Of a stretch of DNA of 64,000 nucleotides, positions 4,225 through 43,202 are shown in pieces. Each line of letters begins with the position of its first letter. Position 1 is the stretch's first letter. Source of the stretch: an uncultured Cytophagales bacterium. Its GTDB lineage: Bacteria > Bacteroidota > Bacteroidia > Cytophagales > Cyclobacteriaceae. Position numbers and translations under genes: made by a program. The stretch covers positions 39,132 to 103,131 of the forward strand of contig CAYQLY010000009.1 in the NCBI GenBank assembly GCA_964418605.1, read 5' to 3'. Below the pieces are notes generated by a model that had not been told where the DNA came from, did no database searches, and was given only the letters and a program-made list of their open reading frames with translations.

Positions 4225-4948
4225 TTGGGATCAGAAAAAAAATTTATTATTCAATGATTACCTTGTTAATTTTAATTCAAAATTCACGTCATTACTTTTA
4301 AAAGATATTCAAAAAGTATGGCCTACTTGGGAAATCACTTATTGCTGGTTTGGGATGAAAGATATATTAGTTCACTTAAATGCCACTAGCGAATCAGATC
4401 AATTTTATCGCGTTTCAAAAATAGATTATTTAGAAACAACTAGATTTGAGAGGAGGCAAGATTACATGAAAGTAACACTAGAATTAGGAAAAGAACTTGA
4501 ATTTGATGAAAATAAAACGTATGATGAAAGTTATTTTATTTATCGAGAAAATAGATATATTGATTTTTTTATAACAATCATAGAATCTGACCAAATCAAA
4601 AATTATGCGGCTACTAGTTACGATATAGTAAGTATAGGAGAAAATATTTTCAACTACATTAAGTTAGAAAATAAATCTATGATTGATCCTCCGTGTTTAA
4701 CAGAAGATGTGGTACTAAATGGAATTATAATTAATAAACAGGAAAAAGAAATAAATAGTTGGTGGAGTCAAAGCAAAGATGGAATTGTTTTAATGGATTT
4801 AATCAAAGCTCATTGGAATGGTTGGACAATTAATCATTTAGAAAAAGGGTTAGAAAGCCATCTAAAGATCATTAATCAATTAGAAAATGAAGAAATAATA
4901 CAACTAACAACGGCATATCAAGATTTTATTAATAAATATAAAAAATGA
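4199..4948 (+). CDS. Hypothetical protein (ORFan-like, AT-rich)
   Basis: 249-aa ORF from TTG 4199. A more likely ATG at 4214 (MRFDWDQKK) overlaps the upstream stop by 11 nt. The stop overlaps the paaB start (ATGA). Confidence 0.45.
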   Translation: MVILIMRFDWDQKKNLLFNDYLVNFNSKFTSLLLKDIQKVWPTWEITYCWFGMKDILVHLNATSESDQFYRVSKIDYLETTRFERRQDYMKVTLELGKELEFDENKTYDESYFIYRENRYIDFFITIIESDQIKNYAATSYDIVSIGENIFNYIKLENKSMIDPPCLTEDVVLNGIIINKQEKEINSWWSQSKDGIVLMDLIKAHWNGWTINHLEKGLESHLKIINQLENEEIIQLTTAYQDFINKYKK

Positions 4949-5574
4949 AACTACAATCACTCGATCCAAGAATTAATCGATTAGGAATTGAAGAACAAGC
5001 AACTGAATTTAATAATTCATCCTTAGATCAAGGAGAAACATACGAAGCATTTGTTCAAGTTAAAGAAGGGAAACCTTATGAACATGTTGGAATTATTCAT
5101 GCGACAAATGAATCTATGGCTATGCTCTTTGCAAAGGAGCAATACAGCAGACGTGGAAATACGTGTACAGGATTATGGGTGGTAAAAACACAACATATCC
5201 AAGTTTCTGAGTATATCGATAACAATCAAAATATATATGATAAGCTACAACAGAACATCACCTCTTATCAAAACTCGAATCCATTTGAATCTTATGAAGT
5301 TTTTCATTTAAAGAAAAGGGGGAAGCAACATATTCATGCAGGCACTGTACAAGCGACGCAATATGAGGACGCATTTCAACAGGCTACTTTTACGTTAAAT
5401 GACAAAACGCCTTTACTTAATGTCTGGATTATACGATCAGCAGATATCTTTCGAACATCCTCTACAGATGGTGATATTTGGGATACATTACCTGAAAAAA
5501 AGTACCGCGAAGCGATGGCATACAAGGCTGGAGATAAATTGAAAAAATTTAAGGAAAATAATTTAAACAAGTAG
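4945..5574 (+). CDS. paaB: 1,2-phenylacetyl-CoA epoxidase subunit B, tandem two-domain form
   Basis: 209-aa ORF with two PaaB-like halves ('YEAFVQVKEGKPYEHVGIIHA...LWVV' and 'YEVFHLKKRGKQHIHAGTVQA...VWII'). Confidence 0.7.
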   Translation: MKLQSLDPRINRLGIEEQATEFNNSSLDQGETYEAFVQVKEGKPYEHVGIIHATNESMAMLFAKEQYSRRGNTCTGLWVVKTQHIQVSEYIDNNQNIYDKLQQNITSYQNSNPFESYEVFHLKKRGKQHIHAGTVQATQYEDAFQQATFTLNDKTPLLNVWIIRSADIFRTSSTDGDIWDTLPEKKYREAMAYKAGDKLKKFKENNLNK

Positions 5575-5577
5575 AAA

Positions 5578-6333
5578 ATGAATACTAGTGCAATCAAAGA
5601 ACTCCTCTACAAAATAGCCGATGACCAACTGATCATCGGGCATCGTAATTCCGAATGGACAGGCATCGGACCTTTATTGGAAGAAGATATTGCTTTCTCA
5701 TCTATGGCTCAGGATAAAGTGGGGCAAAGCCAGGCTTTTTATAAACTACTGCATGACTTAGGAGAATCAGAACCTGACACGGTGGCCTTTACCCGAAATG
5801 CAGAACAATTTCATTGTTGTCAGTTTGTAGAGTTACCCATTGGTGAATATGAGTTTAGCTTGATTCGTCATTTTTTATTTGATCATGCTGAACTGATTCG
5901 ATTTGAATTATTAACTCAATCGTCATACAAGCCCTTAGCTCAACTAGCTCAAAAAATAAAAGGAGAAATTAAATACCATATGATGCATGCCAACGAATGG
6001 ATCAAGCAATTAGGTAATGCAACAGAAGAAAGCATTGCACGTATGCAACAAGCATTAGATCAAGCTTTGCCTTATGCATTGGGAATATTTGAACCTTCTC
6101 CTTATGAAAAGGAATTGATTCAAGAACAACTATTCCAAGGAGAAAAAAAATTACAAGAGCAATGGGTTAAAAATATTAGTTCAATTATTCAACTTACTCA
6201 ACTAAAACTGATTAATTTCGATATACTAAAACCAATATATGGGGGCCGACTAGGAAAACATACTACACACCTACAACCTTTACTAGATGAGATGACTGAG
6301 GTTTTCCGAATTGACCCGAGTGCAGAATGGTAA
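5578..6333 (+). CDS. paaC: 1,2-phenylacetyl-CoA epoxidase subunit C
   Basis: 251-aa ORF with 'DDQLIIGHRNSEWTGIGPLLEEDIAFSSMAQDKVGQ', typical of PaaC/PaaI. Confidence 0.75.
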   Translation: MNTSAIKELLYKIADDQLIIGHRNSEWTGIGPLLEEDIAFSSMAQDKVGQSQAFYKLLHDLGESEPDTVAFTRNAEQFHCCQFVELPIGEYEFSLIRHFLFDHAELIRFELLTQSSYKPLAQLAQKIKGEIKYHMMHANEWIKQLGNATEESIARMQQALDQALPYALGIFEPSPYEKELIQEQLFQGEKKLQEQWVKNISSIIQLTQLKLINFDILKPIYGGRLGKHTTHLQPLLDEMTEVFRIDPSAEW

Positions 6334-6430
6334 AAAATAATTATTAAACTAAAATAAACTTTTATCTTATATTTTTTATAACCAATAAACTAAGTTTATA
6401 CTCTCTTAATGACAATAGAACAAAAACTAT

Positions 6431-6853
6431 ATGAAATACTACCACATTATTCTGATCATTATTGGATTCATTGTTTTCTTTTGTGCACTTTGGATCTTTA
6501 TTACTTTTTTAATTTCACGTACGGGAAGTTGGCATCAATTAAGTAAAACATATACTACATCGTATATCCCTCCAAAAGAAAAAATAATAAAAAGGCAATT
6601 AGGTAAAATAGGCATTGCTCGTTATAAGTTTAGTTTAACTATTGCTTTTACAGACCAAGGGCTTTATTTATCCGTAAATAAAGCATTTCGACTATTTCAT
6701 CCACCATTACTTATACCTTGGAATAAAATAAAAAATCCAAGAAAGTCAGCTGATATTCCTTACCGTTATGTAGTGGTGGATGTAAATGGCATAAAAGTAT
6801 CACTAGCTGAAAAACACTACGATTTGATTATGAAATACTTATCTATAAAGTAA
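6431..6853 (+). CDS. Hypothetical membrane-anchored protein
   Basis: 140-aa ORF with one N-terminal TM helix. No family recognised. Confidence 0.4.
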   Translation: MKYYHIILIIIGFIVFFCALWIFITFLISRTGSWHQLSKTYTTSYIPPKEKIIKRQLGKIGIARYKFSLTIAFTDQGLYLSVNKAFRLFHPPLLIPWNKIKNPRKSADIPYRYVVVDVNGIKVSLAEKHYDLIMKYLSIK

Positions 6854-6867
6854 ACTATAGCTAAAAA

Positions 6868-6904
6868 GAAAAAAGAGGGTTATATTCATTAACCCTCTTT
6901 TTTA
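6868..6904. terminator. Bidirectional intrinsic terminator between convergent genes
   Basis: AGAGGGTTA (6874-6882), 7-nt loop, TAACCCTCT (6890-6898), flanked by an A-run and a T-run. Confidence 0.6.
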
Positions 6905-6928
6905 AATAAGTAATTATTACAATACTAT

Positions 6929-8944
6929 TTACTCAATAATCATGCGCTTAACATCTACTTCAGATCCATCTACCATAAGGGTATAAATATACATTCCTTG
7001 AGCTAAATCTGCACCTGATTGTAACTTGATTTGACCTTCGCCTCTCGTAGCTATTTCTTGGCTTTTTATTTTTTTACCTGTCATATCATAAATCACTAAT
7101 ACGGCTCGTTGACTAGATTCAGGAATATGATAACCAATCACTGTTTCTCCTGAAAATGGATTAGGTATATTTTGGTCTAAGCGAGCTAATTTCAATGCAG
7201 ATATTTCTCCTTCCTGACGCATAGTAATAGAACCATTTAGTGATGTGGCATTTTTAAGCTCACCAATCTCTTTAGCTTGACGTGCTAGTTCTTGTTTCTG
7301 TTGATCAACCAAACTATTCAATTCTTTGATTGAATTAATTAACATATAAAAAACATCATTAGGATTATAAGATAAATATTCTTCCCTCACACCTGTTGTA
7401 TCTTGATATACATATGATCGGACTGTATGTGGTGCAATTTGCTGCATATCTTGTGCGACAATACCTACAAATGTTTCCGTAGTTGGAAGACCTGCTTTGC
7501 CGTTATATTTAAATAGTACAGGATTAATCTTTAAAATAGTAGAAAGACCATCTTTATATGGGGCTATAACTTCTTTCAATCGTCGATCTGAGGTTACTGT
7601 CCAAAATACACTACCTGGTTTTCCAGCATCATTTTTACTCAATTGAAATTGAAAACTTGGATTTGATAATCCTATACCTACCAAAGCAGAGTCAACATCC
7701 ACTCGTCCAAGCACAACACCATTACGCACAGTAGATCTACTTCTAGATCCAAGAGCTACACTGTAAGAAAAATTAGTTTTACTACCAGTTCCAAGAGCTA
7801 CAGAAAAGCTAGACTCTCCTAGTATAGATGATCCATTACCAATAGATACATTATTGACTCCATCTATATTACCATAACCAGAAAAAGAACCTATAAATAC
7901 ATTACCAACACCTGACTTGCTAGTAGGAGCTGAGGTGTATCCTATATAAGTATTAAAATCTCCACTCTCCGCTTTATTACCTGCTAAAGCACCAAGAAAC
8001 ATATTATTACTACCTATTATATTAGCTGCAGCTGTTTTATATCCCAAAAATACATTATAATTACCCGTTGTATTACTCATCGCTGTACTATCTCCTGCAA
8101 ATAAATTATGGCTTCCTGTACTATTAGAACTCCCTGTTTTATATCCTAAAAAAACATTGGAGCTCCCTGTTGTATTAGAAGAACCCGTAAGAAAACCTAG
8201 CATAACATTATACCCTCCCTCTGTATTAGAAAAACCAGCTTGAGCACCAACAAATACATTTTGTAACCCTGTTGTATTAAGATAGCCAGACTCTTTCCCA
8301 ATAAATGTATTCCAACTTCCATTATTAGAATACCCAGCTTGATCACCAATAAAAACATTAGCATATGCATCTAAATTAGAATACCCAGACTCACGACCTA
8401 TAAATGTATTGTAGCCACCTATTGTATTAGTATTACCTGATGCAAATCCCAAAAAAGTATTGTAATCTCCTGTATTGCGGAAACCCGAACCAGACCCAAT
8501 CAACGTACTGCCTTTAACACTAACTCCGGAATAACCTGTATTTACTCCAATATACACATTACTATAACCACTAATATTAGAATAACCTGCCTGAGTACCT
8601 ATAAATAAATTAAAACTACCATCTAAATTAGAATATCCGGACTTAGCCCCCATAAACAAGTTATATTCTCCACTTGTATTTTGAACACCAGCATCACTTC
8701 CTAAGAATACATTATAAGATCCAGAATTTCTAAATCCTGCCTGAAAACCTATGGAAACAGTATTCATACCCGAATCTTTATTCAATTCACCGGCCTTAAA
8801 ACCATAAAAACAAGAACCTGGGCCTTTTGATCCAGAATTTACTCCATAAGAAGTAATTGCCTGAGCATTAATCATTTTTGATTGATACATTATGCTAGAT
8901 AGCATAACTAGTTTAATAACTGAACTATAAATCTTCTTTTTCAT
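6929..8944 (-). CDS. Tail-fibre-like repeat protein with peptidase S74 intramolecular chaperone domain and T9SS type-A C-terminal sorting domain
   Basis: ORF 6929..8965, with the probable start at M8 (8944) giving signal peptide MKKKIYSS...INAQA. About 25 copies of a ~14-15-aa 'G(Y/F)SNtxGxxNvFxG' repeat (residues ~40-410). 'TSDRRLKE...VGIVAQDMQQIAPHTV' is an S74 autoproteolysis module. Coiled coil follows, then a C-terminal 'NIPNPFSGET...GMYIYTLMVDG...KRMIIE' T9SS tail. Confidence 0.75.
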   Translation of the reverse strand: MKKKIYSSVIKLVMLSSIMYQSKMINAQAITSYGVNSGSKGPGSCFYGFKAGELNKDSGMNTVSIGFQAGFRNSGSYNVFLGSDAGVQNTSGEYNLFMGAKSGYSNLDGSFNLFIGTQAGYSNISGYSNVYIGVNTGYSGVSVKGSTLIGSGSGFRNTGDYNTFLGFASGNTNTIGGYNTFIGRESGYSNLDAYANVFIGDQAGYSNNGSWNTFIGKESGYLNTTGLQNVFVGAQAGFSNTEGGYNVMLGFLTGSSNTTGSSNVFLGYKTGSSNSTGSHNLFAGDSTAMSNTTGNYNVFLGYKTAAANIIGSNNMFLGALAGNKAESGDFNTYIGYTSAPTSKSGVGNVFIGSFSGYGNIDGVNNVSIGNGSSILGESSFSVALGTGSKTNFSYSVALGSRSRSTVRNGVVLGRVDVDSALVGIGLSNPSFQFQLSKNDAGKPGSVFWTVTSDRRLKEVIAPYKDGLSTILKINPVLFKYNGKAGLPTTETFVGIVAQDMQQIAPHTVRSYVYQDTTGVREEYLSYNPNDVFYMLINSIKELNSLVDQQKQELARQAKEIGELKNATSLNGSITMRQEGEISALKLARLDQNIPNPFSGETVIGYHIPESSQRAVLVIYDMTGKKIKSQEIATRGEGQIKLQSGADLAQGMYIYTLMVDGSEVDVKRMIIE

Positions 8945-9070
8945 AATATATATATTTTTTTGCAATATACTATAAATTATAAAAATATCCTAAATTACTA
9001 TTTATTTAAACTCTCAAGAGTTATAGTGCCTAAAAATGATTAAATTTATTCGTCAATTTTTACCTTTTCA

Positions 9071-9553
9071 ATGCTGAGTAAAAAACACATTATAGACTTA
9101 TTAGAGAATGTAAAAGATCCTGAAATTCCAGTCTTATCATTAATAGATCTAGGGGTAATCACTACTATTGCTATTGAAAATAATAAAGTAATTATTGAAA
9201 TGACACCTACTTTTGTAGGATGCCCAGCAATAGATGTAATGAAAGAAAATGTAGAACATGTATTAAAAAAAAATGGAATCGAACAATACGATGTAATCAT
9301 TTCTTTTGAAAAACCATGGTCATCTAATCTCATAACTGAAAAAGGAAAAGAAGCACTAAAAAAATTTGGCCTTGCACCTCCCCCTTCTCATCAGAATTTA
9401 ATTGTAGATATCGATCTTATTTCTCATGTGAAATGTCCCTACTGTGACAGTGATAATACAGAAATGAAATCTCTTTTTGGACCAACACTTTGTCGATCTC
9501 TTCACTATTGCAATAATTGCCAGCAAGCTTTTGAGCAATTTAAACCGATATAA
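9071..9553 (+). CDS. paaD: 1,2-phenylacetyl-CoA epoxidase subunit D (DUF59 plus Cys-rich tail)
   Basis: 160-aa ORF with 'VKDPEIPVLSLIDLGVI...TPTFVGCPA' and a C-terminal CPYC...CNNC zinc-ribbon-like motif. Confidence 0.75.
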   Translation: MLSKKHIIDLLENVKDPEIPVLSLIDLGVITTIAIENNKVIIEMTPTFVGCPAIDVMKENVEHVLKKNGIEQYDVIISFEKPWSSNLITEKGKEALKKFGLAPPPSHQNLIVDIDLISHVKCPYCDSDNTEMKSLFGPTLCRSLHYCNNCQQAFEQFKPI

Positions 9554-22955: not shown

Positions 22956-24884
22956 ATGATTACCATACACGACATCTCTTTTCATTTCGGAAGCCGAACA
23001 TTGTATGAGGACGCTTCTCTGCATATTAAGCCAAAAGATAAAATTGGCTTAATTGGAGCCAATGGTACAGGAAAATCTACATTGTTACGATTAATTACTG
23101 GAGAATACCAACCAGATAAAGGAAGCATCCGAAAAAGCAATGAATGTACGATTGGTTTTTTAAACCAAGACCTTCTCTCCTATCAAGATGAAGACAGTAT
23201 TTTATCTGTAGTGATGCAAGCATTTATACGTCAAAATATACTTCAAAAAGAAATTGACAAAACGTTACATGATTTAGAGCATCACTATGAAGAAAAATTA
23301 ATAGAAAAACTAACTAAACTTCAAGAAGAATTTGGAGCATTGGATGGCTATTCTATTCAAGCACAGGCAGAAGCCGTATTAGAAGGACTAGGATTTCAAA
23401 CTGAGGATTTGCACCGTCCTATTAAACAGTTTTCAGGCGGATGGCGTATGCGAGTTATGTTAGGTAAGCTATTATTACAAAAGCCATCTCTACTCATGCT
23501 TGATGAGCCTACCAATCACTTAGACTTACCTTCTATTGAATGGTTAGAAAACTATCTAAAAGAATATGAAGGTGCTATCATCATCGTCTCTCACGATCGT
23601 CAATTTTTAGATAATGTCATTACCTCTACAGTCGAAGTCGCGGGTCAAAAGTTAAATAGTTATGCTGGCAACTATTCATTCTACTTAGAAGAAAAAGCAT
23701 TGCGTACAGAAATACAAAAAAGTGCTTATGAAAATCAACAACAAAAAATAAGAGAAACAGAACGATTTATTGAACGTTTCAAGGCAAAAGCGAGCAAAGC
23801 TAAACAAGCTCAATCACGAATAAAAGCGTTGGAAAAAATGGAGCTAATAGAAAATGTAGATCCTGAACTCGCTCAAGTCCATTTTAGATTTCGTTATAAG
23901 CAACAACCTGGTCGATTTATTTTAAGCCTAGAGCATGTTTCAAAATCATTTGGAGACCTACATATCTTAAAGAATACAAATGCTCAAATCGAACGTGGAG
24001 ATAAAATTGCGCTCATTGGTGCTAATGGAAAAGGAAAATCAACACTGCTCCGCATCATGGCTGGCATTGAGCCTTGTGAAGGAGAACGAAAATTAGGACA
24101 CAATGTCATCGATTCTCTTTTTGCACAACATCAGCTCGAAGCACTACACATTGAAAATACAATATTGGAGGAACTCAAACAAACTGGTAGTGATAAAACT
24201 GAAACAGAGCTACGTACTATTTTAGGTTGCTTTTTATTTTCAAATGATGATGTATTTAAAAAAATAAAAATATTATCTGGAGGAGAAAAGTCACGTGTGG
24301 CCTTAGCAAAAACATTAATATCGGACGCTAATTTCCTACTGCTTGATGAACCTACTAACCACTTAGATATTTCTTCTATTAATATTCTTATTCAAGCATT
24401 ACAACAGTATGAAGGTACCTTTGTAACCATCTCTCATGATCGGCACTTTATAGCACAAGTAGCTACAAAAATTTGGTATATTGAAAATCATGAAATAAAA
24501 GAATACCCAGGCACTTTTGAAGAATATGATTATTGGAAAAGCCAACAAAAAGACAGTTCTTCTACATCAAAAACTAAAAAAGAATCTAAAAAAAAACCTG
24601 TACAAGAAACACTCCATGTAAAAAATGAAGAAAAAGAATTAACTCAAAAAAAAATTAAAAAGAATAAAGATCAACTTGGAAAAATAGAACAAAAAATCAG
24701 TACAGCAGAAAAGCAAAAGATTATACTTGAGCAAGAAATGGCTTCACCCGCTATTCACTCCAATCCAAAAGAATACGAAAAAATTAATCTTCAATACCAA
24801 CAACTATGTGCTACACTAATTCAACTTCAAACCGAATGGGATCAGCTGGCAACAGAATTGGAAGACTTAGAAAAAAAGATATAA
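22956..24884 (+). CDS. ABC-F family ATPase (two NBDs, K-rich coiled-coil tail)
   Basis: 642 aa with two Walker A motifs (GANGTGKST, GANGKGKST), two signature motifs (SGGWRMR, SGGEKSR) and no TM domain. Confidence 0.85.
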   Translation: MITIHDISFHFGSRTLYEDASLHIKPKDKIGLIGANGTGKSTLLRLITGEYQPDKGSIRKSNECTIGFLNQDLLSYQDEDSILSVVMQAFIRQNILQKEIDKTLHDLEHHYEEKLIEKLTKLQEEFGALDGYSIQAQAEAVLEGLGFQTEDLHRPIKQFSGGWRMRVMLGKLLLQKPSLLMLDEPTNHLDLPSIEWLENYLKEYEGAIIIVSHDRQFLDNVITSTVEVAGQKLNSYAGNYSFYLEEKALRTEIQKSAYENQQQKIRETERFIERFKAKASKAKQAQSRIKALEKMELIENVDPELAQVHFRFRYKQQPGRFILSLEHVSKSFGDLHILKNTNAQIERGDKIALIGANGKGKSTLLRIMAGIEPCEGERKLGHNVIDSLFAQHQLEALHIENTILEELKQTGSDKTETELRTILGCFLFSNDDVFKKIKILSGGEKSRVALAKTLISDANFLLLDEPTNHLDISSINILIQALQQYEGTFVTISHDRHFIAQVATKIWYIENHEIKEYPGTFEEYDYWKSQQKDSSSTSKTKKESKKKPVQETLHVKNEEKELTQKKIKKNKDQLGKIEQKISTAEKQKIILEQEMASPAIHSNPKEYEKINLQYQQLCATLIQLQTEWDQLATELEDLEKKI

Positions 24885-26188
24885 AAAAAATAAAACAGTG
24901 TTTTTTTTTAGTATTACTCATTTTAGTTATACCTATTGCTACAGAGGCTCAAATTAGTATTACGACATACCACGATTCTTTACAAACGCATATCAAAGAA
25001 AAATACCACGTACTTTCAGAAGATACAACTCAACTTGATGGACCTTATCAAAAATTTTATCCTACTGGAGAATTAGAAATTACTACCTTTTTCAAAAAAG
25101 GTAAAAAAGATAGCCTCTATACAGAATATTACCCTAACGGACAAAAAAAGATGACTACTGTATTTAGAGATGGTCTTCAACAAGGTCTATTTTATTCTTA
25201 CTCAAATAAGGGAACTGTGATTCAATCTGGCACTTATGATAAAGGCGAACTCATAGGAGCCATTATAAGCTATTATGAAAATGGTTCTATCAAAAAAGAA
25301 ATTCAATTTGAAAATGGTCTTCCACATGGATTAATTAAAGATTATTATCCTACTGGCAGAGTCAAGCAAGAGCTTTATTATGAGCATGGGAAACAACGTG
25401 GGTTAGCAAAAACCTATTATGAAAATGGAGGTTTAGAAACAGAAGCTTTTTATGAAAACGGATTTATTAATGGCTTTTTTAAAACATATTATACTACGGG
25501 ACAGTTAAATACACACTATACTATAGAAAAAGGAAGCAAAAATGGAGTTTTCAAAACATACTTTCTTAATGGTAAATTACAACTAGAGGGCAGCTATAAA
25601 AATGGAAAGCCTGATGGTATGAATAAAGAATACGATGAAAATGGAAAGATCAAACATGAGTTTTATTATTCAGAAGGATTTAAAACAGGACTAAATACAA
25701 CTTACTATCCATCAGGTAAGATCAAAGAAAAAATAAAATACGCTAACCAAGAAAAAGACCGTGATAGTAAACTATATAATGAACATGGTATTCTTCAGAA
25801 ACAAAGTAGTTATAAAAATGGGGTTCCAGATAATACATGGAGTTATTTTTATGAAAATGGAAACACTTATATTAAAGAATCCTATACAAACGGAAAATTA
25901 GATGGGAAAAGATACACCTTCTACCCCACAGGGAAAATCAAAGTGGAAGAAAATTATACAGCAGGAACTAAAACAGGATTAGAAAAAGGATTTTACACAA
26001 CAGAAAAAATAAACTATGAAGCTATCTATTCAAACAACGCTAAAAATGGGACATATACATCCTATTTTGAGAATGGCACTATAGACTCCACAGGCACTTT
26101 TAAAAATAATAAACCTGTTGGAAAATGGATATACTATAATGAAGACGGGAAAATAAGTAAGAGTAAAAATTGGAATAAAAAAAGGTAA
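24836..26188 (+). CDS. Secreted MORN-variant / YwqK-type repeat protein
   Basis: About 16 copies of the 'G.k.G....YY.nG' repeat. Signal peptide KKIKQCFFLVLLILVIPIATEAQ. Start uncertain: the ORF opens at 24806 inside the ABC-F gene and 24836 is the last in-frame ATG before the signal peptide. Confidence 0.6.
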   Translation: MGSAGNRIGRLRKKDIKKIKQCFFLVLLILVIPIATEAQISITTYHDSLQTHIKEKYHVLSEDTTQLDGPYQKFYPTGELEITTFFKKGKKDSLYTEYYPNGQKKMTTVFRDGLQQGLFYSYSNKGTVIQSGTYDKGELIGAIISYYENGSIKKEIQFENGLPHGLIKDYYPTGRVKQELYYEHGKQRGLAKTYYENGGLETEAFYENGFINGFFKTYYTTGQLNTHYTIEKGSKNGVFKTYFLNGKLQLEGSYKNGKPDGMNKEYDENGKIKHEFYYSEGFKTGLNTTYYPSGKIKEKIKYANQEKDRDSKLYNEHGILQKQSSYKNGVPDNTWSYFYENGNTYIKESYTNGKLDGKRYTFYPTGKIKVEENYTAGTKTGLEKGFYTTEKINYEAIYSNNAKNGTYTSYFENGTIDSTGTFKNNKPVGKWIYYNEDGKISKSKNWNKKR

Positions 26189-27737: not shown

Positions 27738-30548
27738 CTATCGAATAATTAAACGTTTCTCCCAAGTTTTACCATCGTGAGTAAGCAATAACATGTAAAT
27801 ACCTGGTTGAAGGTTATACTCTTGTAAGTTAAGTACAACATCTTCAGATGCCGTAGATGTTGAATCCATTGATTGATTGATAACAATCTGTCCATGCATA
27901 TCGATCAAACGAAGATGTATTGATTTTGATTTCACATCTGCAGGTAATGTGATAGTAATAGAATTATTTCTTGTAGCAGGGTTAGGCGCTATGGACATAC
28001 CATTAGCATCCAATACTGACAGCATGGTTGTCATAGAGGCCTTATCCAAAGATGTTAGAGTTGGGAATGGATAAGGATCTTTGCCATTATAAAATCTGAA
28101 GGTTAGTGAAGAAACTTGCTGAGAGGATGTTGCAGGATTAACATCTGCAAGAGTAGCTATGTAAAAGCTATTATTTAGTTCAGCATAACTCAATGAATAA
28201 CGTACAACATGCACTAATCCAGCATAACTTGATTTATACTTATATAAAAAGCAAACTTTACCAAAAATAAGAAATTCTTGTCTTCCAATATAGGGTGCTA
28301 CTCCCACATTAAAACCTTTACTACCAACGCCACTGAGTGCATCCCCATTTAATTGTAATAAACGAAGCTTTTGAATATCTGGATCATCTACTGTCAATGA
28401 AAAATGTTTAGCTGATATATTATAAGAACCAGAAGATAATTTACTTTCTGCTGAGATACGCCAATTAGGGCCAGCAATGACATTAACCTGATCTCCTCCA
28501 TCAATATAGTTACATCTTGCTATTAACATTTTATTACCTGAATACTCGTGATATCCTTTATAGGTTACAGATATATATCCTCCTGATTGAGGAATTGTAT
28601 TTGCCGCAATGCGTATTAACCGACCTGGATTATCTCTGTCAAGATGCATAGTAACTCCTGAGCATCCACCAAAATCCCGCATAGTTTGAATATCTACAAT
28701 ATAAAAAGGTAAGTCTGAAGCAGCGTAATCATTTAACTCGTCATTAAGTTTCAAAAATTTCTTATCACGTTTAAGATAACGTGTCAATGTGCCATTGAAT
28801 ACACCTCTGCTAATGTTATCAACAGCCATATACCCTGGTTTGCTATCAGATACCCCTGTTTTTAATTCTTGTTTATTCAAATTCATATTTCGAAATAACC
28901 GCGTCGTGTCACTCACCATAATGTTTGTTTTTAAAATAGGTCCACTCCAAAAATCATCCAAAGGCTTGAATGGATCAGTATCGATCTGTAACGATGAAAA
29001 TGTGGTGATAGAGTTACCCGCAATATATTGATAGCGTCCATTAAAGCTAACCCAACTGGAATGTGCTATAAATGTACCATCATTGTAAAACCCAATCGAA
29101 TCATTTTCAGAACGAGCACCCATAATACGCATCACCGTATGTGTGCTGAGTGTACGATCATCCATCATATCAAATGTCTTATCTTTTCCTATCTTTAAAC
29201 TTAACACATCAAACGTCCAGCCTTGTGGGGTCAATTGACACATATGAGTGTAAGGAACTACTACAATAGCAGACACAACATCTCTTCCTATAGTCATATG
29301 TGGAAATTGCCGGCATCCTGTAAAGCGAAATCGTTGACTTCCAATTGTATACATGCCGCCAAAGTGAACCTCTCCACCACTTACATTGGTTATGTTTGAC
29401 ATTAACTCAAAATCAGTAGGGGTTGTCACACTAGGATCTGTATAGGATGAGGCATTGTGAATAGTAATACGGCCAAAAGACATGTTGAAAGAAGAGGTTT
29501 CTGTAAATTTAAGTGTCTCTACAGTAGTTTTTTCAACCCCTACATCCATACTTGAATTCATAACCATATGAAAATTCACTGATGAAGATGGAGTCATGGG
29601 ATCATTTTTAAATGCCCCAGCTATAAACAAGTTACTTTTATCTTGAAGAGTAATGTCTGCTTGATTTCCTTGATAATATAATCCGTATGGTGTAGGGCCT
29701 TTTCCTATTAAACCCGTTGATACGGCTAATGTGCCACCAGCTAATCGAATATTACCACGTAAATAGGTAGTATTATTAATAGGAATAGTCATTTTCCCCT
29801 GAAACACTTCTATTGTTACATTTTCTGATATTACCATCGGATCATTTAACGTCATACCTGGTTGATAAATATTATCAAGTTCTTCAACATTGTTATGACG
29901 AAAAATACCTCTGTTTAAATCAATAGATGAATGGCCAACTAGCTTAGAACCATCCGTGAGCTCTTTAGATAAAGCAGGATCTTGCATATCTACAAGGATA
30001 GCAGGTATGTTCTTATTCATGCGCAGATAAGCTAAATGATACGTTCCGCCAGCAGCTGAAACCACGCTAGGAATACTACCTGTAAAATTCAATCCCACAT
30101 AATTAGATGCATCAGAACGAAGATTTAGTTGTCCTTTATTAGATAAATTCCCATCTATAAATAGATTGTGGATTAATCCAAGTGTACCTGTGTATTCTAT
30201 TTTGCCATTTCTTTCAATGGTTAAATCTCCGCCTTGTACATATAGAAAAGATGATACAGCGGTTGAATACGAAATGATTCCATCCACTACATCTACTTTT
30301 TTACAAATAATATTTCCTTCTAAGATGATCTTATTTCCTCCGCAAATAACTGCCGTATCTCCTGAAATAGGATACATTCCTGCATTAATTGTACTAGAAC
30401 AACTGCCTGTCACCCAAGACATTGCATCATTCCAATTCCCTCCCTTTGAATAATAAGTTGTTGAAAAACCTTGCTGAAAAAATGTGAATAAGGTAAGAAC
30501 TAAGCCTATTCCTCGAATAAGCTTATATTTAGTTTGGATTTTAATCAT
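27738..30548 (-). CDS. Large secreted beta-helix-like protein with T9SS type-A C-terminal domain (paralogue A)
   Basis: 936 aa with a signal peptide. N-terminal 'TTYYSKGGNWNDAMSWVTGSC...YPISGDTAVIC' is homologous over more than 250 aa to the 40124..42829 product. C-terminal 'IAPNPA...GIYMLLLTHDGKTWEKRLIIR' sorting domain. Confidence 0.7.
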   Translation of the reverse strand: MIKIQTKYKLIRGIGLVLTLFTFFQQGFSTTYYSKGGNWNDAMSWVTGSCSSTINAGMYPISGDTAVICGGNKIILEGNIICKKVDVVDGIISYSTAVSSFLYVQGGDLTIERNGKIEYTGTLGLIHNLFIDGNLSNKGQLNLRSDASNYVGLNFTGSIPSVVSAAGGTYHLAYLRMNKNIPAILVDMQDPALSKELTDGSKLVGHSSIDLNRGIFRHNNVEELDNIYQPGMTLNDPMVISENVTIEVFQGKMTIPINNTTYLRGNIRLAGGTLAVSTGLIGKGPTPYGLYYQGNQADITLQDKSNLFIAGAFKNDPMTPSSSVNFHMVMNSSMDVGVEKTTVETLKFTETSSFNMSFGRITIHNASSYTDPSVTTPTDFELMSNITNVSGGEVHFGGMYTIGSQRFRFTGCRQFPHMTIGRDVVSAIVVVPYTHMCQLTPQGWTFDVLSLKIGKDKTFDMMDDRTLSTHTVMRIMGARSENDSIGFYNDGTFIAHSSWVSFNGRYQYIAGNSITTFSSLQIDTDPFKPLDDFWSGPILKTNIMVSDTTRLFRNMNLNKQELKTGVSDSKPGYMAVDNISRGVFNGTLTRYLKRDKKFLKLNDELNDYAASDLPFYIVDIQTMRDFGGCSGVTMHLDRDNPGRLIRIAANTIPQSGGYISVTYKGYHEYSGNKMLIARCNYIDGGDQVNVIAGPNWRISAESKLSSGSYNISAKHFSLTVDDPDIQKLRLLQLNGDALSGVGSKGFNVGVAPYIGRQEFLIFGKVCFLYKYKSSYAGLVHVVRYSLSYAELNNSFYIATLADVNPATSSQQVSSLTFRFYNGKDPYPFPTLTSLDKASMTTMLSVLDANGMSIAPNPATRNNSITITLPADVKSKSIHLRLIDMHGQIVINQSMDSTSTASEDVVLNLQEYNLQPGIYMLLLTHDGKTWEKRLIIR

Positions 30549-38547: not shown

Positions 38548-39145
38548 AATCTAACATTTTTTTATCCCCTATAAATGCTTCTAATCTATCTCCTACATGC
38601 ACAGGCCCTACGCCAGACGGAGTACCTGTAAATACAACATCCCCTTTTTTTAATGTAAAAAAAGTAGATATATAGGATATGATATAATCAAAGTCAAAAA
38701 TCATCAAGGATGTATCTCCAAATTGCTTCTGCTCTCCATTCACTTTTAAACTAAAGGTCAAGCCTGACAAGTTTGTAAAGGAAGATTTAGGTATAAAATC
38801 AGAAATAGGAGCGGACCCATTAAAGCCTTTGGCGATATCCCAAGGCAATCCCTTCAGTTTTAACTTATTCTGAATATCACGTGCTGTAAAATCAATACCA
38901 ACACCTATCCCTTCGTAATACTTATGAGCAAATCTTTTCTCAATATTTTTCCCTTCTTTATTGATTAGAAGCAAAATCTCCACCTCATAATGGATATCTT
39001 GGCTAAAACTAGGATAGTAAAAAGGTGCATTCTGCCGAATGATGGCCGTTTCAGGCTTTAAAAAAACAACTGGTTCATCAGGAAGCTCATTTTTTAACTC
39101 CTCTGCATGAGCTTTGTAATTCCGACCTATTGCAAAAATTTTCAT
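38534..39145 (-). CDS. Fumarylacetoacetate hydrolase (FAH) family protein
   Basis: The ORF extends to 39205, but M21 (39145, MKIFAIGRNY) is the likely start. C-terminal 'GDVVFTGTPSGVGPV' motif. Confidence 0.75.
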   Translation of the reverse strand: MKIFAIGRNYKAHAEELKNELPDEPVVFLKPETAIIRQNAPFYYPSFSQDIHYEVEILLLINKEGKNIEKRFAHKYYEGIGVGIDFTARDIQNKLKLKGLPWDIAKGFNGSAPISDFIPKSSFTNLSGLTFSLKVNGEQKQFGDTSLMIFDFDYIISYISTFFTLKKGDVVFTGTPSGVGPVHVGDRLEAFIGDKKMLDFEVK

Positions 39146-39240
39146 AATTAAACTCTCAAATAACGTAAATCTTAGCCATCTGCAAAAATAAATAACCCCA
39201 AGCATAAGATTTTTAAAGCTTTCCTATTTGATCTAAATTG

Positions 39241-39660
39241 AATTAAATTAATAAATTTTATAACTATTTTATTATATTATAATATTTATATAATATTTTT
39301 ATTTTATAAAAATAATTATATAAATATATACAAATTATTATAAAAATTATATTTATGTAATTATTATTGAATTATTTTTATATAAAATATAATAATATTT
39401 TTGTAAATTAATATATAATATAAATCTTAATTTATATTATATATATAAATATTATACTATTATTTTAATTAAAAATTTGAATTAACTACTTGATAAACAA
39501 TATAATATTAAATAATAAAAAAAATAGTATATTTGTTTTGTAATAAAAAAAAATAATTGTATATTTGATACCTTTTTTAAAACAAGGTGATTAAATAAAA
39601 AACATATAATTCATATTTAATTATATATATAAATATATTTTTATATATGATTAAATAGAT
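39241..39660. other. Extreme A+T tract (hand count 27 G/C in 420 nt; 8 G/C in the first 240 nt)
   Basis: Counted directly from the sequence. No ORF. Irregular low-complexity ATA/TAT/AAT words with no fixed period. Confidence 0.85.
39528..39567 (+). promoter_or_regulatory. Two tandem TATATTTG boxes (Bacteroidota -7 consensus TAnnTTTG), each preceded by an A8-9 run
   Basis: TATATTTG at 39528-39535 and 39560-39567. The same octamer precedes the cobalamin riboswitch at 42903. Confidence 0.3.
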
Positions 39661-39677
39661 TAATAAAATTGGATAAA

Positions 39678-39875
39678 ATGAAATTAGAATATAAAAAATA
39701 TAAAAATATAGATGCCTCTTACACTTTTGAGGGGGCAAAACGGCTTTGGACTACCATAAACAACAAAACAAACAAAACCTACTTTACGGTCCAAACAACC
39801 GGAGATGGGATAATCTTAACCTATCCTATCTCCTTTTTATTATTTTTCAATAGAAACAACTTAAGTGGTACATAA
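39678..39875 (+). CDS. Small hypothetical ORF (65 aa from the ATG), or the body of a non-coding RNA
   Basis: The only G/C-normal island in a 0.9-kb intergenic gap. The ORF is bisected by a strong terminator-like hairpin at 39801-39838, so its coding status is doubtful. Confidence 0.3.
   Translation: MKLEYKKYKNIDASYTFEGAKRLWTTINNKTNKTYFTVQTTGDGIILTYPISFLLFFNRNNLSGT
39801..39838 (+). terminator. Intrinsic terminator-like hairpin inside the small ORF
   Basis: 12-bp stem GGAGATGGGATA / TATCCTATCTCC (one G-U pair), 9-nt loop, followed by TTTTTATTATTTTT. Confidence 0.5.
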
Positions 39876-39906
39876 AAGTAAGTGTTAATTAAAAAGCGTA
39901 AAAACT

Positions 39907-39941
39907 GAAAAATAGCCATCTTTTAGATGGCTATTTTTTTA
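39907..39941 (+). terminator. Second intrinsic terminator
   Basis: ATAGCCATC (39912-20) / GATGGCTAT (39926-34), with an A-run before and T7 after. Confidence 0.6.
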
Positions 39942-40123
39942 TCCCTAAATTGATAAAAAATCAACATTTTATTAAACTTTGATTAATACATAGCCTAAAT
40001 CAATAGGATTTAAAATTTAACTTATTTAATATTAAATTAAATTTTTTTTAGTTTCTTCTCTTGTAGATTATTAAAAAAATAACTAAATTCGCATGCTAAA
40101 AAAGATTAATACACTTAACACTT

Positions 40124-42902: not shown

Positions 42903-42910
42903 TATATTTG
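42903..42910 (+). promoter_or_regulatory. Candidate -7 box TATATTTG for the riboswitch-btuB transcript
   Basis: Exact TAnnTTTG match just upstream of the riboswitch aptamer. Confidence 0.4.
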
Positions 42911-42914
42911 CTAC

Positions 42915-43075
42915 AAGTAAGTATAGGTGTTCGCAAGAACTTAATAGGGAATTTCGTGTAAAACGAAAGCTGTTCCCGCAACTGTAACCTCTACAAAGCT
43001 GTTATCAACAAAGTCACTCTTTTTAAAAAAGGGGAAGACCATAACAGTGAGGCAAGCCAGGAGACCTACCTGTAC
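42915..43075 (+). promoter_or_regulatory. Cobalamin (B12) riboswitch
   Basis: Conserved core 'AATAGGGAA...GTG.AAA.CGAAAGCTGTTCCCGCAACTGTAA' and B12 box 'AAGCCAGGAGACCTACC'. Lies immediately upstream of a BtuB-like TonB-dependent receptor. The expression platform (43076-43200) is not resolved. Confidence 0.8.
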
Positions 43076-43202
43076 ATTAAATTTCTTTTAAGCGCTTTCG
43101 GGTAAAAAGCAGAAAGGATGAGTGTCTTATATTATCCAAAGACATGTCTTCGTTTTTAAATTCCTGAATAGCTCTTAAGAAAGTTAAACTTTTACCTCAT
43201 TA

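What the first reader, a model, noticed from the sequence alone, without database searches (positions are those of the whole stretch)
6929..8944. Phage-tail-fibre-like protein with the T9SS sorting signal downstream of its own S74 self-cleavage site
The protein has a signal peptide and about 370 aa of ~14-15-residue 'GYSNxxGxxNVFxG' repeats, which look like a fibre or head-repeat region. It then has an unmistakable peptidase-S74 intramolecular chaperone module. The catalytic Ser-x4-Lys pair 'S459-DRRL-K464' is encoded with the Ser codon at 7589-7591. In endosialidase and T5-type tail fibres this module trimerises the fibre and then cuts itself off exactly at that Ser. Here the module is followed by a coiled coil and a canonical T9SS type-A C-terminal domain (residues ~598-678, nt 6932-7174). 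If autoproteolysis happens as in phage, the fibre would be separated from the only signal that can carry it across the outer membrane. Either cleavage is delayed until after T9SS export, or only the chaperone fragment is exported, or the fibre stays non-covalently attached. The gene sits on the opposite strand inside the paaC-paaD gap.
Basis: partly seen in the sequence, partly recalled or inferred. Interest (0 to 1): 0.7.

Follow-up and report, generated by a model that had tools for sequence, protein, structure and literature searches.

The report
Phage-type fibre adapted for T9SS export
This gene encodes a bacterial protein built like a phage tail fibre, and its self-cleaving folding module sits between the fibre and the tag that sends it through the Bacteroidota type IX secretion system; hundreds of related bacterial proteins share this layout, no searched paper describes it, and it is unclear how the fibre stays attached to its export tag.

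Summary
ORF 6932-8944(-) (671 aa) has these parts:
- a Sec signal peptide;
- a Peptidase_S74 intramolecular chaperone (43.6 bits, cut-off 22) with the Ser452-x4-Lys457 dyad (Ser codon 7589-7591);
- a disordered linker;
- a T9SS type-A CTD (TIGR04183, 33.2 bits, cut-off 23).

The "coiled coil" is the chaperone's own C-terminal helix.

The protein is not a one-off. The S74-linker-CTD cassette occurs in at least 379 clusters (50% identity). These span Cytophagales, Chitinophagales, Saprospiraceae and Flavobacteriales, often as tandem paralogues. The dyad is invariant in 85/85 close relatives and kept in 133/138 diverse ones.

All 80 best viral relatives share the repeats and the chaperone. All 80 end at the chaperone, and most or all lack a signal peptide. 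So this looks like a phage fibre that gained a signal peptide and a CTD.

The cleavage/export-order puzzle is genuine and cannot be resolved here. Partial precedents are MyRF (S74 cleavage releases from a C-terminal tether) and Bdellovibrio MAT fibres (cellular, S74 at the C-terminus). No paper linking S74 to T9SS was found.

Verdict: new variant of known kinds, moderate interest.

The parts
8864..8944 (-). Sec (signal peptidase I) signal peptide, aa 1-27 (MKKKIYSSVIKLVMLSSIMYQSKMINA|QA). Predicted cleavage is A27|Q28.
   Evidence: Sequence shows a KKK n-region, a hydrophobic core and I-N-A before Gln. Q28 is conserved in at least 90% of 85 relatives. This fits the Bacteroidota habit of starting mature SPI substrates with Gln (own knowledge). 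No signal-peptide predictor was available.
7700..8863 (-). Passenger (fibre/spike body), aa 28-415. It has about 18 repeats of 17 aa (NxFxGxxAGYSNTTGxx, aa about 61-381), then two YadA-head-like 14-mers.
   Evidence: Period 17 from autocorrelation and motif spacing. AF2 gives a beta-solenoid with pLDDT 80-95. PHROG virion structural, tail-spike and tail-fibre families match. Viral relatives are 28-39% identical (best segment) and match from aa about 30 to 553-573. YadA_head scores 23.2 bits, below its cut-off of 25.
7775..8038 (-). Hypervariable segment of the passenger, aa about 303-390. It lies in the last repeats of the passenger, some 60 aa upstream of the cleavage site.
   Evidence: Only 46-56% identical to the two orthologues, which are otherwise 80-100% identical. 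For aa 301-400 against L077, dN is 0.43 and dS is 0.99, compared with dS 0.15-0.45 elsewhere. This suggests segment replacement by recombination.
7592..7699 (-). Conserved stalk / 'capping-loop' segment before the cleavage site, aa 416-451 (…VGIGLSNPSFQFQL…KPGSVFWTVT).
   Evidence: 100% identical in both orthologues. The family profile aligns here to the tip of Bdellovibrio Bd3182 (8ojn_C, …GINTAAPAYNIHV…WTVAS) and to the MyRF stalk. W448 is invariant. The monomer AF2 model has low pLDDT here.
7589..7591 (-). Ser452 codon (TCA), the predicted S74 nucleophile. The predicted scissile bond is Thr451|Ser452.
   Evidence: invariant in 85/85. It aligns with MyRF S587 (Ala in the crystal construct) and with the SD..[LI]K motif of the phage fibres 8jov and 6f45. 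MyRF is cut between P586 and S587 (PMC8326128).
7574..7576 (-). Lys457 codon, the predicted general base of the Ser-Lys dyad.
   Evidence: Invariant in 85/85. Equivalent to MyRF K592 and endoNF K916.
7235..7591 (-). S74 / ICA intramolecular chaperone, aa 452-570.
   Evidence: Pfam PF13884 at 43.6 bits. Foldseek matches MyRF ICA 7dc3 with TM 0.67-0.71. PDB profile hit to 7dc3 at E 2.2e-8. Phage PHROG profiles end at aa about 565. Omega is 0.11.
7166..7234 (-). Flexible linker, aa 571-593, between the chaperone and the CTD. This is the expected region for PorU processing of a type-A cargo.
   Evidence: pLDDT is below 50 for aa 568-584. Sequence is variable (74-83% identity in orthologues). The PorU site is an inference from T9SS knowledge and was not tested.
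6932..7165 (-). T9SS type-A C-terminal sorting domain, aa 594-671.
   Evidence: TIGR04183 at 33.2 bits against a cut-off of 23. PF18962 at 28.5 bits against 27. Seven-strand beta-sandwich with pLDDT about 90. Foldseek matches the NucA and RemA CTDs in T9SS substrate complexes and the PorU CTD. Omega is 0.18.
6869..6903 (-). Terminator-like hairpin 26 nt after the stop codon (6929-6931). It lies between the convergent orf140 and this gene.
   Evidence: (14-pair stem, then a T run). It is the only such site in 6300-9200, and the shuffle expectation is 1.0, so on its own it is weak evidence.

Best explanation

Compared with its viral relatives, the N-terminal virion-attachment region is replaced by a Sec signal peptide. 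A linker and a type-A CTD have been added after the C-terminal S74 intramolecular chaperone.

Proposed mechanism:
1. Sec export, with signal-peptide removal at A27|Q28.
2. The S74/ICA module, driven by its C-terminal helix, trimerises and templates folding of the passenger from the C-terminal end.
3. One or more of the three CTDs engages PorV/SprA, and the protein crosses the outer membrane.
4. The Ser452-Lys457 dyad becomes competent only in the assembled trimer. It cuts Thr451|Ser452 and detaches a mature Q28-T451 homotrimer (about 44 kDa per chain) from an ICA-linker-CTD stub.

I favour cleavage, or at least physical separation, happening at or after export. The S74 module would then act both as the assembly chaperone and as a built-in release step from the CTD-bound shuttle or anchor, as in MyRF. 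Release would also uncover the conserved pre-site stalk (aa 416-451) and bring the nearby variable segment (aa 303-390) close to the new C-terminal end, which I take to be the ligand-binding region.

Shown here: the domain composition and order, the conserved dyad, purifying selection on the chaperone and CTD, the family's breadth, and the relation to viral fibres.

Inferred: trimerisation, self-cleavage, T9SS dependence, the order of events, and the binding function.
For: - Domains and dyad.
- Structure: MyRF ICA TM about 0.7; solved T9SS CTDs; the profile aligns the dyad to the MyRF S587A/K592 positions and to the Bd3182 tip.
- Conservation of the dyad: invariant in 85/85, present in 88/88, kept in 133/138 diverse representatives.
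- Selection: omega 0.11 for the chaperone and 0.18 for the CTD.
- Breadth: 379 clusters at E<=1e-30, and nearly all of the top 150 cover the whole 231-aa cassette and end at the protein's C-terminus. There are 85 S74+CTD ORFs in 76 genomic loci across several Bacteroidota orders, with tandem arrays.
- Viral origin: all 80 best IMG/VR relatives share the repeats and the chaperone and end 94-124 aa after the Ser. None has a CTD. 73 of 80 failed a crude signal-peptide test, and the flagged ones among the 40 N-termini I inspected did not look like real signal peptides. No GenBank phage record covers more than 55% of the cassette.
- The host uses type-A CTDs: two more TIGR04183 proteins lie in the window, and the taxon is Cytophagales.
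- Mechanistic precedents: in MyRF, cleavage requires trimerisation and releases the protein from a C-terminal tether, and TMEM98 can hold cleavage back (PMC8326128). Bd3182 self-cleaves at S782, and tip exposure is needed for binding (PMC10769870).
- The T9SS moves folded cargo (PMC9251779; PMC10202324).
- A variable segment lies in the last repeats before the conserved stalk and the cleavage site.
Against: - There is no experimental evidence for cleavage, trimerisation or secretion of any family member.
- No AlphaFold-multimer model could be made. The monomer model is poor (pLDDT 36-60) around the cleavage site.
- If the T9SS takes only cargo folded in the periplasm, and S74 cleavage follows folding immediately as in phage, the fibre would lose its CTD before export. 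My preferred order therefore needs delayed cleavage or non-covalent retention, and neither is shown.
- Five of 138 diverse family members have lost Ser or Lys but keep the architecture, so cleavage is not indispensable everywhere.
- Nothing indicates where the released trimer would end up. There is no lipobox and no MAT-type N-terminal anchor domain.
Confidence: 0.5

Rival explanations
1. The fibre assembles and is cleaved in the periplasm, then is exported as a non-covalent complex. The trimer folds and S74 cuts itself in the periplasm as in phage. The cleaved ICA-CTD trimer stays clamped on the fibre end, because the cut strand is threaded through the ICA 'donut'. The whole complex is taken through SprA by its CTDs and separates only outside.
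For: T9SS cargo is thought to fold in the periplasm and to cross folded. In the MyRF structure the strand carrying the cleavage site threads through a ring of six beta-strands. S74 cleavage in recombinant Bd3182 and MyRF fragments is spontaneous.
Against: In phage endosialidase, T5 pb1 and Bd3182 the cleaved chaperone comes off as a separate species. No retention mechanism is known. A trimer carrying three CTDs has never been shown to pass the T9SS.
Confidence: 0.22
2. The chaperone does not cleave. The S74 module serves only to trimerise and fold, and the conserved Ser and Lys are structural. The intact trimer is exported. PorU removes the CTDs and attaches the protein by its C-terminus, downstream of the ICA helix, to surface lipopolysaccharide, giving a cell-anchored fibre.
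For: Natural variants with S->A, K->N, K->Q, S->C, or both residues lost keep the full S74+CTD architecture (P0126, P0177, P0223, P0182, P0234). Type-A CTD cargo is often surface-anchored after PorU processing (T9SS reviews). The protein has no other visible anchor.
Against: Ser and Lys are invariant in 85/85 and kept in 133/138. In every S74 protein tested (endoNF, T5 pb1, MyRF, Bd3182) this dyad cleaves, and S->A or K->A blocks cleavage. With C-terminal anchoring, the end homologous to the phage receptor-binding tip, together with the nearby variable segment, would face the cell.
Confidence: 0.15
3. Only the chaperone-CTD fragment is secreted. The fibre stays in the periplasm, or is delivered to the surface by another route.
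For: A sister class in Bacteroidota has a signal peptide, the same kind of passenger and a terminal S74, but no CTD. So some S74 fibres manage without a CTD. The Bdellovibrio MAT fibres also reach the surface by an unidentified route.
Against: It gives no rationale for conserving a CTD on a discarded 25-kDa stub across hundreds of clusters and under purifying selection. This family lacks the conserved N-terminal domain that the CTD-less class and the MAT fibres carry.
Confidence: 0.05
4. It is an ordinary (pro)phage tail-fibre gene or a trimeric autotransporter adhesin, and the CTD hit is spurious.
For: Database names for relatives are 'tail fiber domain-containing protein' and 'trimeric autotransporter adhesin'. 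PHROG tail families match.
Against: The protein has a signal peptide. The CTD passes two curated cut-offs and is structurally a T9SS CTD. The neighbours are paa and nuo housekeeping genes, with the same synteny in an orthologue. None of 80 viral relatives has a CTD. There is no YadA anchor, and YadA_head is below its cut-off.
Confidence: 0.03

Closest known systems
Phage tailspike/tail-fibre C-terminal intramolecular chaperone (Peptidase S74: K1F endosialidase endoNF, T5 L-shaped fibre pb1, GA-1 gp12)
   Same: It has the SDxxxK Ser-Lys dyad, the ICA fold with a C-terminal helix, and a preceding beta-helical stalk with the (V)GIGT..P…L…W motif. The whole passenger plus chaperone is homologous to proteins on viral contigs, at 28-39% identity (best segment) with matches spanning about 500 aa.
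   Different: In all 80 viral relatives, and in the GenBank phage hits, the chaperone is the extreme C-terminus. Most or all lack a signal peptide: 73/80 failed a crude test, and the flagged ones I inspected looked like false positives. Here a Sec signal peptide replaces the virion-attachment N-terminus, and a linker plus a T9SS CTD follow the chaperone.
Bdellovibrio bacteriovorus MAT (mosaic adhesive trimeric) fibres, S74 subgroup, e.g. Bd3182 (Caulton et al. 2024, PMC10769870; PDB 8ojn)
   Same: It is a chromosomal, Sec-exported, phage-like fibre of a Gram-negative cell that ends its passenger with the same capping-loop/WTVAS-type motif and an S74 module. The family profile hits 8ojn_C. Bd3182 self-cleaves at S782, and S782A blocks cleavage.
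   Different: MAT fibres terminate in S74 with nothing after it. They also carry an invariant N-terminal domain of about 130 aa, thought to hold them on the cell. The protein here has no such domain, because the repeats start right after the signal peptide, and it has a T9SS CTD after S74. The phylum and the secretion system both differ. The paper does not mention Bacteroidota or T9SS.
MyRF / MrfA ICA domain (eukaryotic membrane-tethered transcription factors; PDB 7dc3)
   Same: It is the best structural and sequence match in the PDB. It is the only characterised case where S74 is internal and followed by a C-terminal targeting or tethering element, so that self-cleavage releases the N-terminal trimer. 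Cleavage requires trimerisation through the C-terminal coiled coil.
   Different: It is eukaryotic and cytosolic/ER-located. The tether is a transmembrane helix, not a secretion signal. The released part is a DNA-binding domain, not a fibre.
T9SS type-A CTD cargo proteins (TIGR04183 / PF18962; e.g. gingipains, ChiA, NucA, RemA)
   Same: It has an N-terminal Sec signal, a C-terminal Ig-like beta-sandwich of about 78 aa with the PNPF… and G.Y.Y…K motifs, and a flexible linker before it. Its fold matches the NucA and RemA CTDs seen bound in the translocon.
   Different: Within the 7 targeted queries I ran, no paper describes T9SS cargo that is an obligate homotrimer, or that carries a self-cleaving module between passenger and CTD. 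Described cargo is separated from its CTD by the PorU sortase (own knowledge).
Trimeric autotransporter adhesins (type Vc, YadA-like)
   Same: It has a repetitive Gly/Asn-rich beta-solenoid passenger, probably trimeric, with a C-terminal element that drives export and trimerisation. JGI names several relatives this way.
   Different: There is no YadA anchor beta-barrel. YadA_head scores below its cut-off (23.2 against 25 bits). The repeat is 17 aa, not 14. Export would be by T9SS.

Membership tests
[quoted passage not shown] | Profile match above the curated threshold | tested here: met
   PF13884 scores 43.6 bits against a cut-off of 22, E 3.5e-11, aa 452-508.
[quoted passage not shown] | Ser-x4-Lys catalytic dyad (SDxxxK) at the start of the domain | tested here: met
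   The motif is S452-DRRL-K457. It is invariant in 85/85 relatives. It aligns to the MyRF S587(A)/K592 positions and to SD..[LI]K of the phage fibres 8jov and 6f45.
[quoted passage not shown] | ICA fold with a C-terminal helix able to form the trimeric coiled coil | tested here: met
   Foldseek matches 7dc3 with TM 0.67-0.71 over 128 columns. The AF2 model has a helix at 528-570. Only a monomer model was made.
[quoted passage not shown] | Homotrimerisation and autoproteolysis at the Ser | not testable with these tools
   This needs expression of wild type against S452A/K457A, or at least a multimer model.
[quoted passage not shown] | Domain located at the extreme C-terminus (the phage and MAT arrangement) | tested here: not met
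   A further 101 aa (linker plus CTD) follow the chaperone. The distance from the Ser to the end is 220 aa here, against 94-124 aa in 80 viral relatives and 101-138 aa in the CTD-less cellular relatives among the top homologues. MyRF is the known exception.
T9SS type-A CTD cargo | TIGR04183 / PF18962 match above cut-off at the extreme C-terminus | tested here: met
   TIGR04183 scores 33.2 against 23 bits. PF18962 scores 28.5 against 27 bits. The match covers aa 594-670 of 671.
T9SS type-A CTD cargo | Ig-like beta-sandwich fold of solved CTDs | tested here: met
   The model has pLDDT about 90 here. It matches the NucA CTD 8glk_D (TM 0.63), the RemA CTD 8gl6_D (TM 0.54) and PorU 6za2.
T9SS type-A CTD cargo | N-terminal Sec signal peptide | tested here: met
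   By inspection only: a KKK n-region, a hydrophobic core, then INA|Q. The same pattern, …A|Q, occurs in relatives, and Q28 is at least 90% conserved. No predictor was run.
T9SS type-A CTD cargo | Host encodes a T9SS | tested here: inconclusive
   No core T9SS gene was identified among the window ORFs I scanned. Two other TIGR04183 proteins lie in the window, and the organism is a Cytophagales bacterium, an order in which T9SS is general (own knowledge).
T9SS type-A CTD cargo | T9SS-dependent secretion and PorU removal of the CTD | not testable with these tools
   This needs genetics and proteomics.
Bdellovibrio-type MAT fibres | Conserved beta-rich N-terminal domain of about 130 aa directly after the signal peptide | tested here: not met
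   The repeats begin at about aa 45-60, so there is no room for such a domain. No MAT N-terminal sequence was available for a direct comparison.
Bdellovibrio-type MAT fibres | Phage-like trimeric beta-helix ending in the capping-loop motif and S74 | tested here: met
   The family profile aligns to the tip of Bd3182 (8ojn_C), E 2.1e-5.
Trimeric autotransporter adhesin (type Vc) | C-terminal YadA-like membrane anchor, and YadA head or stalk repeats above threshold | tested here: not met
   There is no anchor hit. YadA_head scores 23.2 bits, below its cut-off of 25.

The most novel reading that the evidence does not exclude
In a large Bacteroidota family, the S74 self-cleaving chaperone has been recruited as a release and quality-control step for T9SS cargo that does not depend on the PorU sortase. 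The T9SS would carry a homotrimer bearing three CTDs, or would allow trimerisation as the C-terminus emerges. Only correctly assembled fibres would cut themselves free of the CTD-bound shuttle. This would mean that the T9SS can handle obligate oligomers. It would also mean that cargo release need not go through PorU.
Probability: 0.3. Interest if true: 0.75.

Novelty: new variant of a known kind. Interest (0 to 1): 0.55.

Why it matters
The T9SS is the main protein-export route of Bacteroidota. How it handles large, folded or oligomeric cargo, and how cargo is released from the CTD, are still open questions.

This family is a natural test case, and it is abundant, with hundreds of clusters and tandem arrays in culturable genera such as Dyadobacter, Hymenobacter and Rhodocytophaga. 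An obligate-trimer cargo has its passenger separated from the export signal by a protease site with a known mechanism. That site can be switched off by a single S->A or K->A change.

Following the two halves in wild-type and T9SS-mutant backgrounds would show directly three things:
- whether assembly comes before export;
- whether trimers can pass SprA;
- whether release can bypass PorU.

The family is also a clear example of a phage receptor-binding fibre taken over by cells. A signal peptide replaces the virion adaptor and a CTD is appended. This parallels the Bdellovibrio MAT fibres but uses a different export solution. The fibres themselves may be adhesins or cell-cell recognition factors in soil and water Bacteroidota.

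Tried and rejected
1. Literature. Seven targeted ones looked for S74 or the intramolecular chaperone together with T9SS, Bacteroidetes, 'tail fiber domain-containing protein' or MAT. None found a paper describing this architecture. The one co-occurrence was a Tannerella OMV proteome that lists a 362-aa 'tail fiber domain-containing protein'. It was uninformative because that protein is not flagged as T9SS cargo and I could not check its sequence.
2. Exact look-up of the window protein found no record. Only orthologue P0002 gave a contig.
3. Paralogues in the window: none with S74, and none close to this CTD by phmmer. A profile search later found two other type-A CTD proteins.
4. Prophage or mobile-element origin of the locus was rejected. 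The flanks are paa and nuo genes, and the synteny is conserved.
5. The trimeric autotransporter reading was rejected.
6. The sigma-70 promoter scan is not above chance: 13 found against 15 expected. It is not meaningful for Bacteroidota in any case.
7. Positive selection on the variable segment was not supported. Omega is 0.44, and dS is also about two- to six-fold higher than in the other segments, so recombinational replacement is the better reading.
8. A trimer model could not be made, because only monomer AF2 was available and concatenated sequences are not accepted. The geometry of the dyad and the width of the trimer relative to the SprA lumen were therefore not assessed.
9. orf140 (6431-6853) is not a conserved partner. 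It has no family hit, and a 48-aa ORF takes its place in the orthologous locus.


Full report
**1. What is in the sequence**

The minus-strand ORF 6929-8965 opens at a TTG (678 aa). The ATG at 8944 gives a 671-aa protein that begins MKKKIYSS…. The two closest database orthologues (86% and 82% identical, both 671 aa) begin the same way. I number from that ATG.

Profile searches confirm both key domains in one polypeptide:
- Peptidase_S74: 43.6 bits (cut-off 22), aa 452-508.
- Por_Secre_tail: 28.5 bits (cut-off 27), aa 594-670.
- TIGR04183 (T9SS type-A sorting domain): 33.2 bits (cut-off 23).

The N-terminus reads as a signal-peptidase-I signal: KKK, a hydrophobic core, then INA|Q. Gln28 is conserved in at least 90% of relatives.

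The repeat region is real, but its period is 17 residues (NxFxGxxAGYSNTTGxx, about 18 copies). Autocorrelation is 0.30 at lag 17 and 0.24 at lag 34.

**2. Anatomy from the model and from homologues**

An AF2 model built on 85 relatives has mean pLDDT 78.5. It shows:
- a beta-solenoid at aa 45-412 (pLDDT 80-95);
- a poorly modelled stretch at 416-449, as expected for a strand-swapped trimeric stalk modelled as a monomer;
- the chaperone at 450-527, followed by one 43-residue helix (528-570);
- a disordered linker (568-584);
- a beta-sandwich CTD at 593-670 (pLDDT about 90).

Foldseek against the PDB gives the MyRF ICA domain as the best match (7dc3, TM 0.67-0.71 over 128 columns). The C-terminal sandwich matches solved T9SS CTDs: NucA CTD in 8glk (TM 0.63), RemA CTD in 8gl6, and PorU 6za2.

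A profile of the family hits 7dc3 at E 2.2e-8. That alignment puts the family's 'aSDkrLK' on MyRF 'pADLRAK', the S587A crystal construct with K592. The same profile hits the tip of Bdellovibrio Bd3182 (8ojn_C, …WTVAS).

Phage tail-spike and tail-fibre PHROG profiles end at aa about 565 of this protein. In MyRF that helix forms the triple coiled coil that drives trimerisation (PMC8326128). Only about 23 flexible residues separate the chaperone from the CTD.

**3. Context**

The gene is convergent with a small unannotated ORF (6431-6853). It lies between paaB-paaC and paaD-nuoA-nuoB. A terminator-like hairpin lies 26 nt past its stop codon. An 82%-identical orthologue on a Logan contig sits in the same paaC|gene|paaD-nuo position. 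So this is a stable chromosomal gene, not a prophage remnant.

GroEL in the window is 89% identical to that of a Cytophagales MAG and 87% identical to Rhodoflexus and Bernardetiaceae. Two other TIGR04183 proteins lie in the window. The host is therefore a T9SS-using Cytophagales bacterium, although no core T9SS gene was identified among the window ORFs I scanned.

**4. This is a large family, not a curiosity**

- Among the 120 best homologues, 88 carry S74 followed by a CTD, and all 88 keep SD..[LFI]K.
- In these 88, the distance from the Ser to the C-terminus is 198-239 aa. In 19 relatives that end with S74 it is 101-138 aa.
- In an 85-sequence alignment S452, D453 and K457 are invariant.
- An exhaustive HMMER scan of 1.84 billion cluster representatives with the 231-aa cassette (aa 441-671) found 379 clusters at E<=1e-30. 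Nearly all of the top 150 align over the whole cassette and end at their C-terminus.
- All 139 new representatives have both modules. The dyad is kept in 133 of the 138 that include the site. The exceptions are S->A, S->C, K->N, K->Q, and one that lost both residues.
- A scan of GTDB species genomes found 154 relatives. The 76 loci kept hold 85 S74+CTD genes. They come from Dyadobacter (tandem arrays of up to five), Rhodocytophaga, Hymenobacter, Chryseosolibacter, Taibaiella, Flavitalea, Saprospiraceae and Flavobacteriaceae.
- Databases name these proteins 'tail fiber domain-containing protein' or, wrongly, 'trimeric autotransporter adhesin'.

**5. Relation to phage**

IMG/VR holds 386 relatives. 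The best 80 match this protein from about aa 30 to about aa 553-573 at 28-39% identity (best segment), so they share both the repeat passenger and the chaperone.

All 80 end 94-124 aa after the catalytic Ser, and none has a CTD. On a crude signal-peptide test 73 of 80 were negative. Among the 40 N-termini I inspected, the flagged ones looked like false positives, and the sequences were typical virion-adaptor N-termini. In 50,697 GenBank phage records, no hit covers more than 55% of the cassette, and the hits cover the S74 part only.

The simplest history is that a phage fibre was taken over by Bacteroidota cells. A Sec signal replaced the virion-attachment end, and a linker plus a type-A CTD were added after the chaperone.

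**6. How it most likely works**

Established knowledge:
- S74/ICA modules trimerise, template the upstream beta-helix, and then cut immediately before the Ser using the Ser-Lys dyad. In MyRF the cut is P586|S587 and needs trimerisation; S587A or K592A abolishes it; and a partner protein (TMEM98) can hold it back (PMC8326128).
- In the cellular Bdellovibrio fibre Bd3182, S782A blocks cleavage, and exposing the tip by S74 proteolysis is considered necessary for ligand binding (PMC10769870).
- T9SS cargo is thought to fold in the periplasm and to cross SprA folded, guided by the CTD (PMC10202324, PMC9251779).

Observed here:
- The chaperone and the CTD are both under purifying selection (omega 0.11 and 0.18 against the orthologue).
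- The passenger segment aa 301-400, in the last repeats before the conserved stalk and the cleavage site, is only 46-56% identical between orthologues that are otherwise 80-100% identical. Both dN and dS are raised there, which suggests segment swapping. This is the behaviour expected of a ligand-binding region.

My reading is as follows. The protein is Sec-exported and trimerised by its ICA. It is taken across the outer membrane through its CTD(s). It is then cut at T451|S452, so that a mature Q28-T451 trimer is freed from an ICA-linker-CTD stub. I favour separation at or after export, with S74 acting as a MyRF-like release step. Otherwise conserving a CTD downstream of a conserved protease site makes little sense.

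Trimerisation, cleavage, T9SS dependence and the order of events are all inferences. The rivals cannot be excluded:
- a cleaved but non-covalently held complex is exported;
- there is no cleavage, and the protein is anchored through PorU;
- only the stub is exported.

The five natural dyad-loss variants show that an uncleaved form is viable in some lineages.

**7. Comparison with what is known, and novelty**

The protein meets the tested criteria for an S74/ICA domain, except the usual terminal position. It meets the tested criteria for a T9SS type-A cargo. It fails the criteria for a trimeric autotransporter: there is no anchor, and YadA_head is below its cut-off. It lacks the N-terminal anchor domain of MAT fibres.

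Its nearest functional analogies are:
- MyRF, where an internal S74 releases the trimer from a C-terminal tether;
- Bdellovibrio MAT fibres, which are cellular, Sec-exported fibres matured by S74.

Neither involves the T9SS. The MAT paper and its supplements do not mention Bacteroidota.

I therefore class the finding as a new variant of known kinds. The parts are familiar. The architecture is already visible in automatic annotation. The combination, and the export/cleavage problem it poses, appear not to have been described.

Interest is moderate, 0.55. The question is sharp and easy to test with single point mutants in culturable genera, but partial precedents exist, and nothing here shows what actually happens.

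Noticed in passing
Proteins P0016, P0024, P0025, P0051, P0082, P0112 etc. (relatives); loci L062, L067-L070, L076: A sister class of Bacteroidota proteins has a signal peptide, a conserved motif right after it (Q-x-P-x-x-F-N-Y-Q-A-V-x-R-N), the same kind of repeat passenger and a terminal S74, but no CTD. This resembles the Bdellovibrio MAT layout, which has a conserved N-terminal domain. How these proteins cross the outer membrane is unknown.
   Followed up: partly
Proteins P0121 (1693 aa), P0227 (771 aa), P0240 (1091 aa): Some family members carry two S74 modules in one chain, for example P0227 with S74 at 247-303 and at about 552-668, then a CTD at 693-766. If both modules cut, the protein would be split into several pieces.
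   Followed up: partly
Proteins P0126, P0177, P0182, P0223, P0234: These are natural variants of the S74+CTD family with the catalytic Ser or Lys replaced (S->A, K->N, S->C, K->Q, or both lost) and the architecture otherwise intact. They are ready-made non-cleaving controls.
   Followed up: partly
window 7775-8038 (aa about 303-390 of the protein): This segment is only 46-56% identical to orthologues that are 80-100% identical elsewhere. For aa 301-400, dN is 0.43 and dS is 0.99, so it looks like a recombinationally swapped cassette inside the repeat array.
   Followed up: yes
L007, L019, L023, L028 (Dyadobacter genomes); L003, L004, L022 (Sphingobacteriales MAG): S74+CTD genes occur as head-to-tail tandem arrays of two to five paralogues. 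One MAG has at least six loci spread over its genome.
   Followed up: partly
window 27741-30548 (-) and 40124-42826 (+): Two further large proteins (936 and 901 aa) end in a T9SS type-A sorting domain (TIGR04183, 39.5 and 29.1 bits). Their passengers had no NCBIfam match above cut-off.
   Followed up: no
window 42908-43087 (+) and 43203-45095 (+): A cobalamin riboswitch (104.5 bits) lies directly upstream of a TonB-dependent receptor with weak BtuB-like matches. This is the usual B12-uptake arrangement.
   Followed up: no
window 4945-5571 (+): The PaaB homologue is 209 aa with two matched stretches, roughly twice the length of the 89-position PaaB profile. It looks like a duplicated or fused PaaB. 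The orthologous locus has a 211-aa version.
   Followed up: no
window 6431-6853 (+): This 140-aa ORF has an N-terminal hydrophobic helix and no Pfam match. It is convergent with the fibre gene. In the orthologous locus L077 only a 48-aa ORF occupies this position, so it is not a conserved partner.
   Followed up: partly
window 24806-26185 (+): This 460-aa protein has three sub-threshold stretches matching the Leptospira LIC20035 adhesin family (98.7 bits against a cut-off of 250).
   Followed up: no
window 39001-40000: G+C drops to 0.20, against about 0.33 for the window. The drop lies just upstream of the 901-aa CTD protein gene.
   Followed up: no
BFVD entry A0A6J5M064 (uncultured Caudovirales phage): A viral protein annotated 'Secretion system C-terminal sorting domain' matched the CTD part of the model. 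So CTD-like domains do occur on some viral contigs, although none of the 80 S74 viral relatives has one.
   Followed up: no
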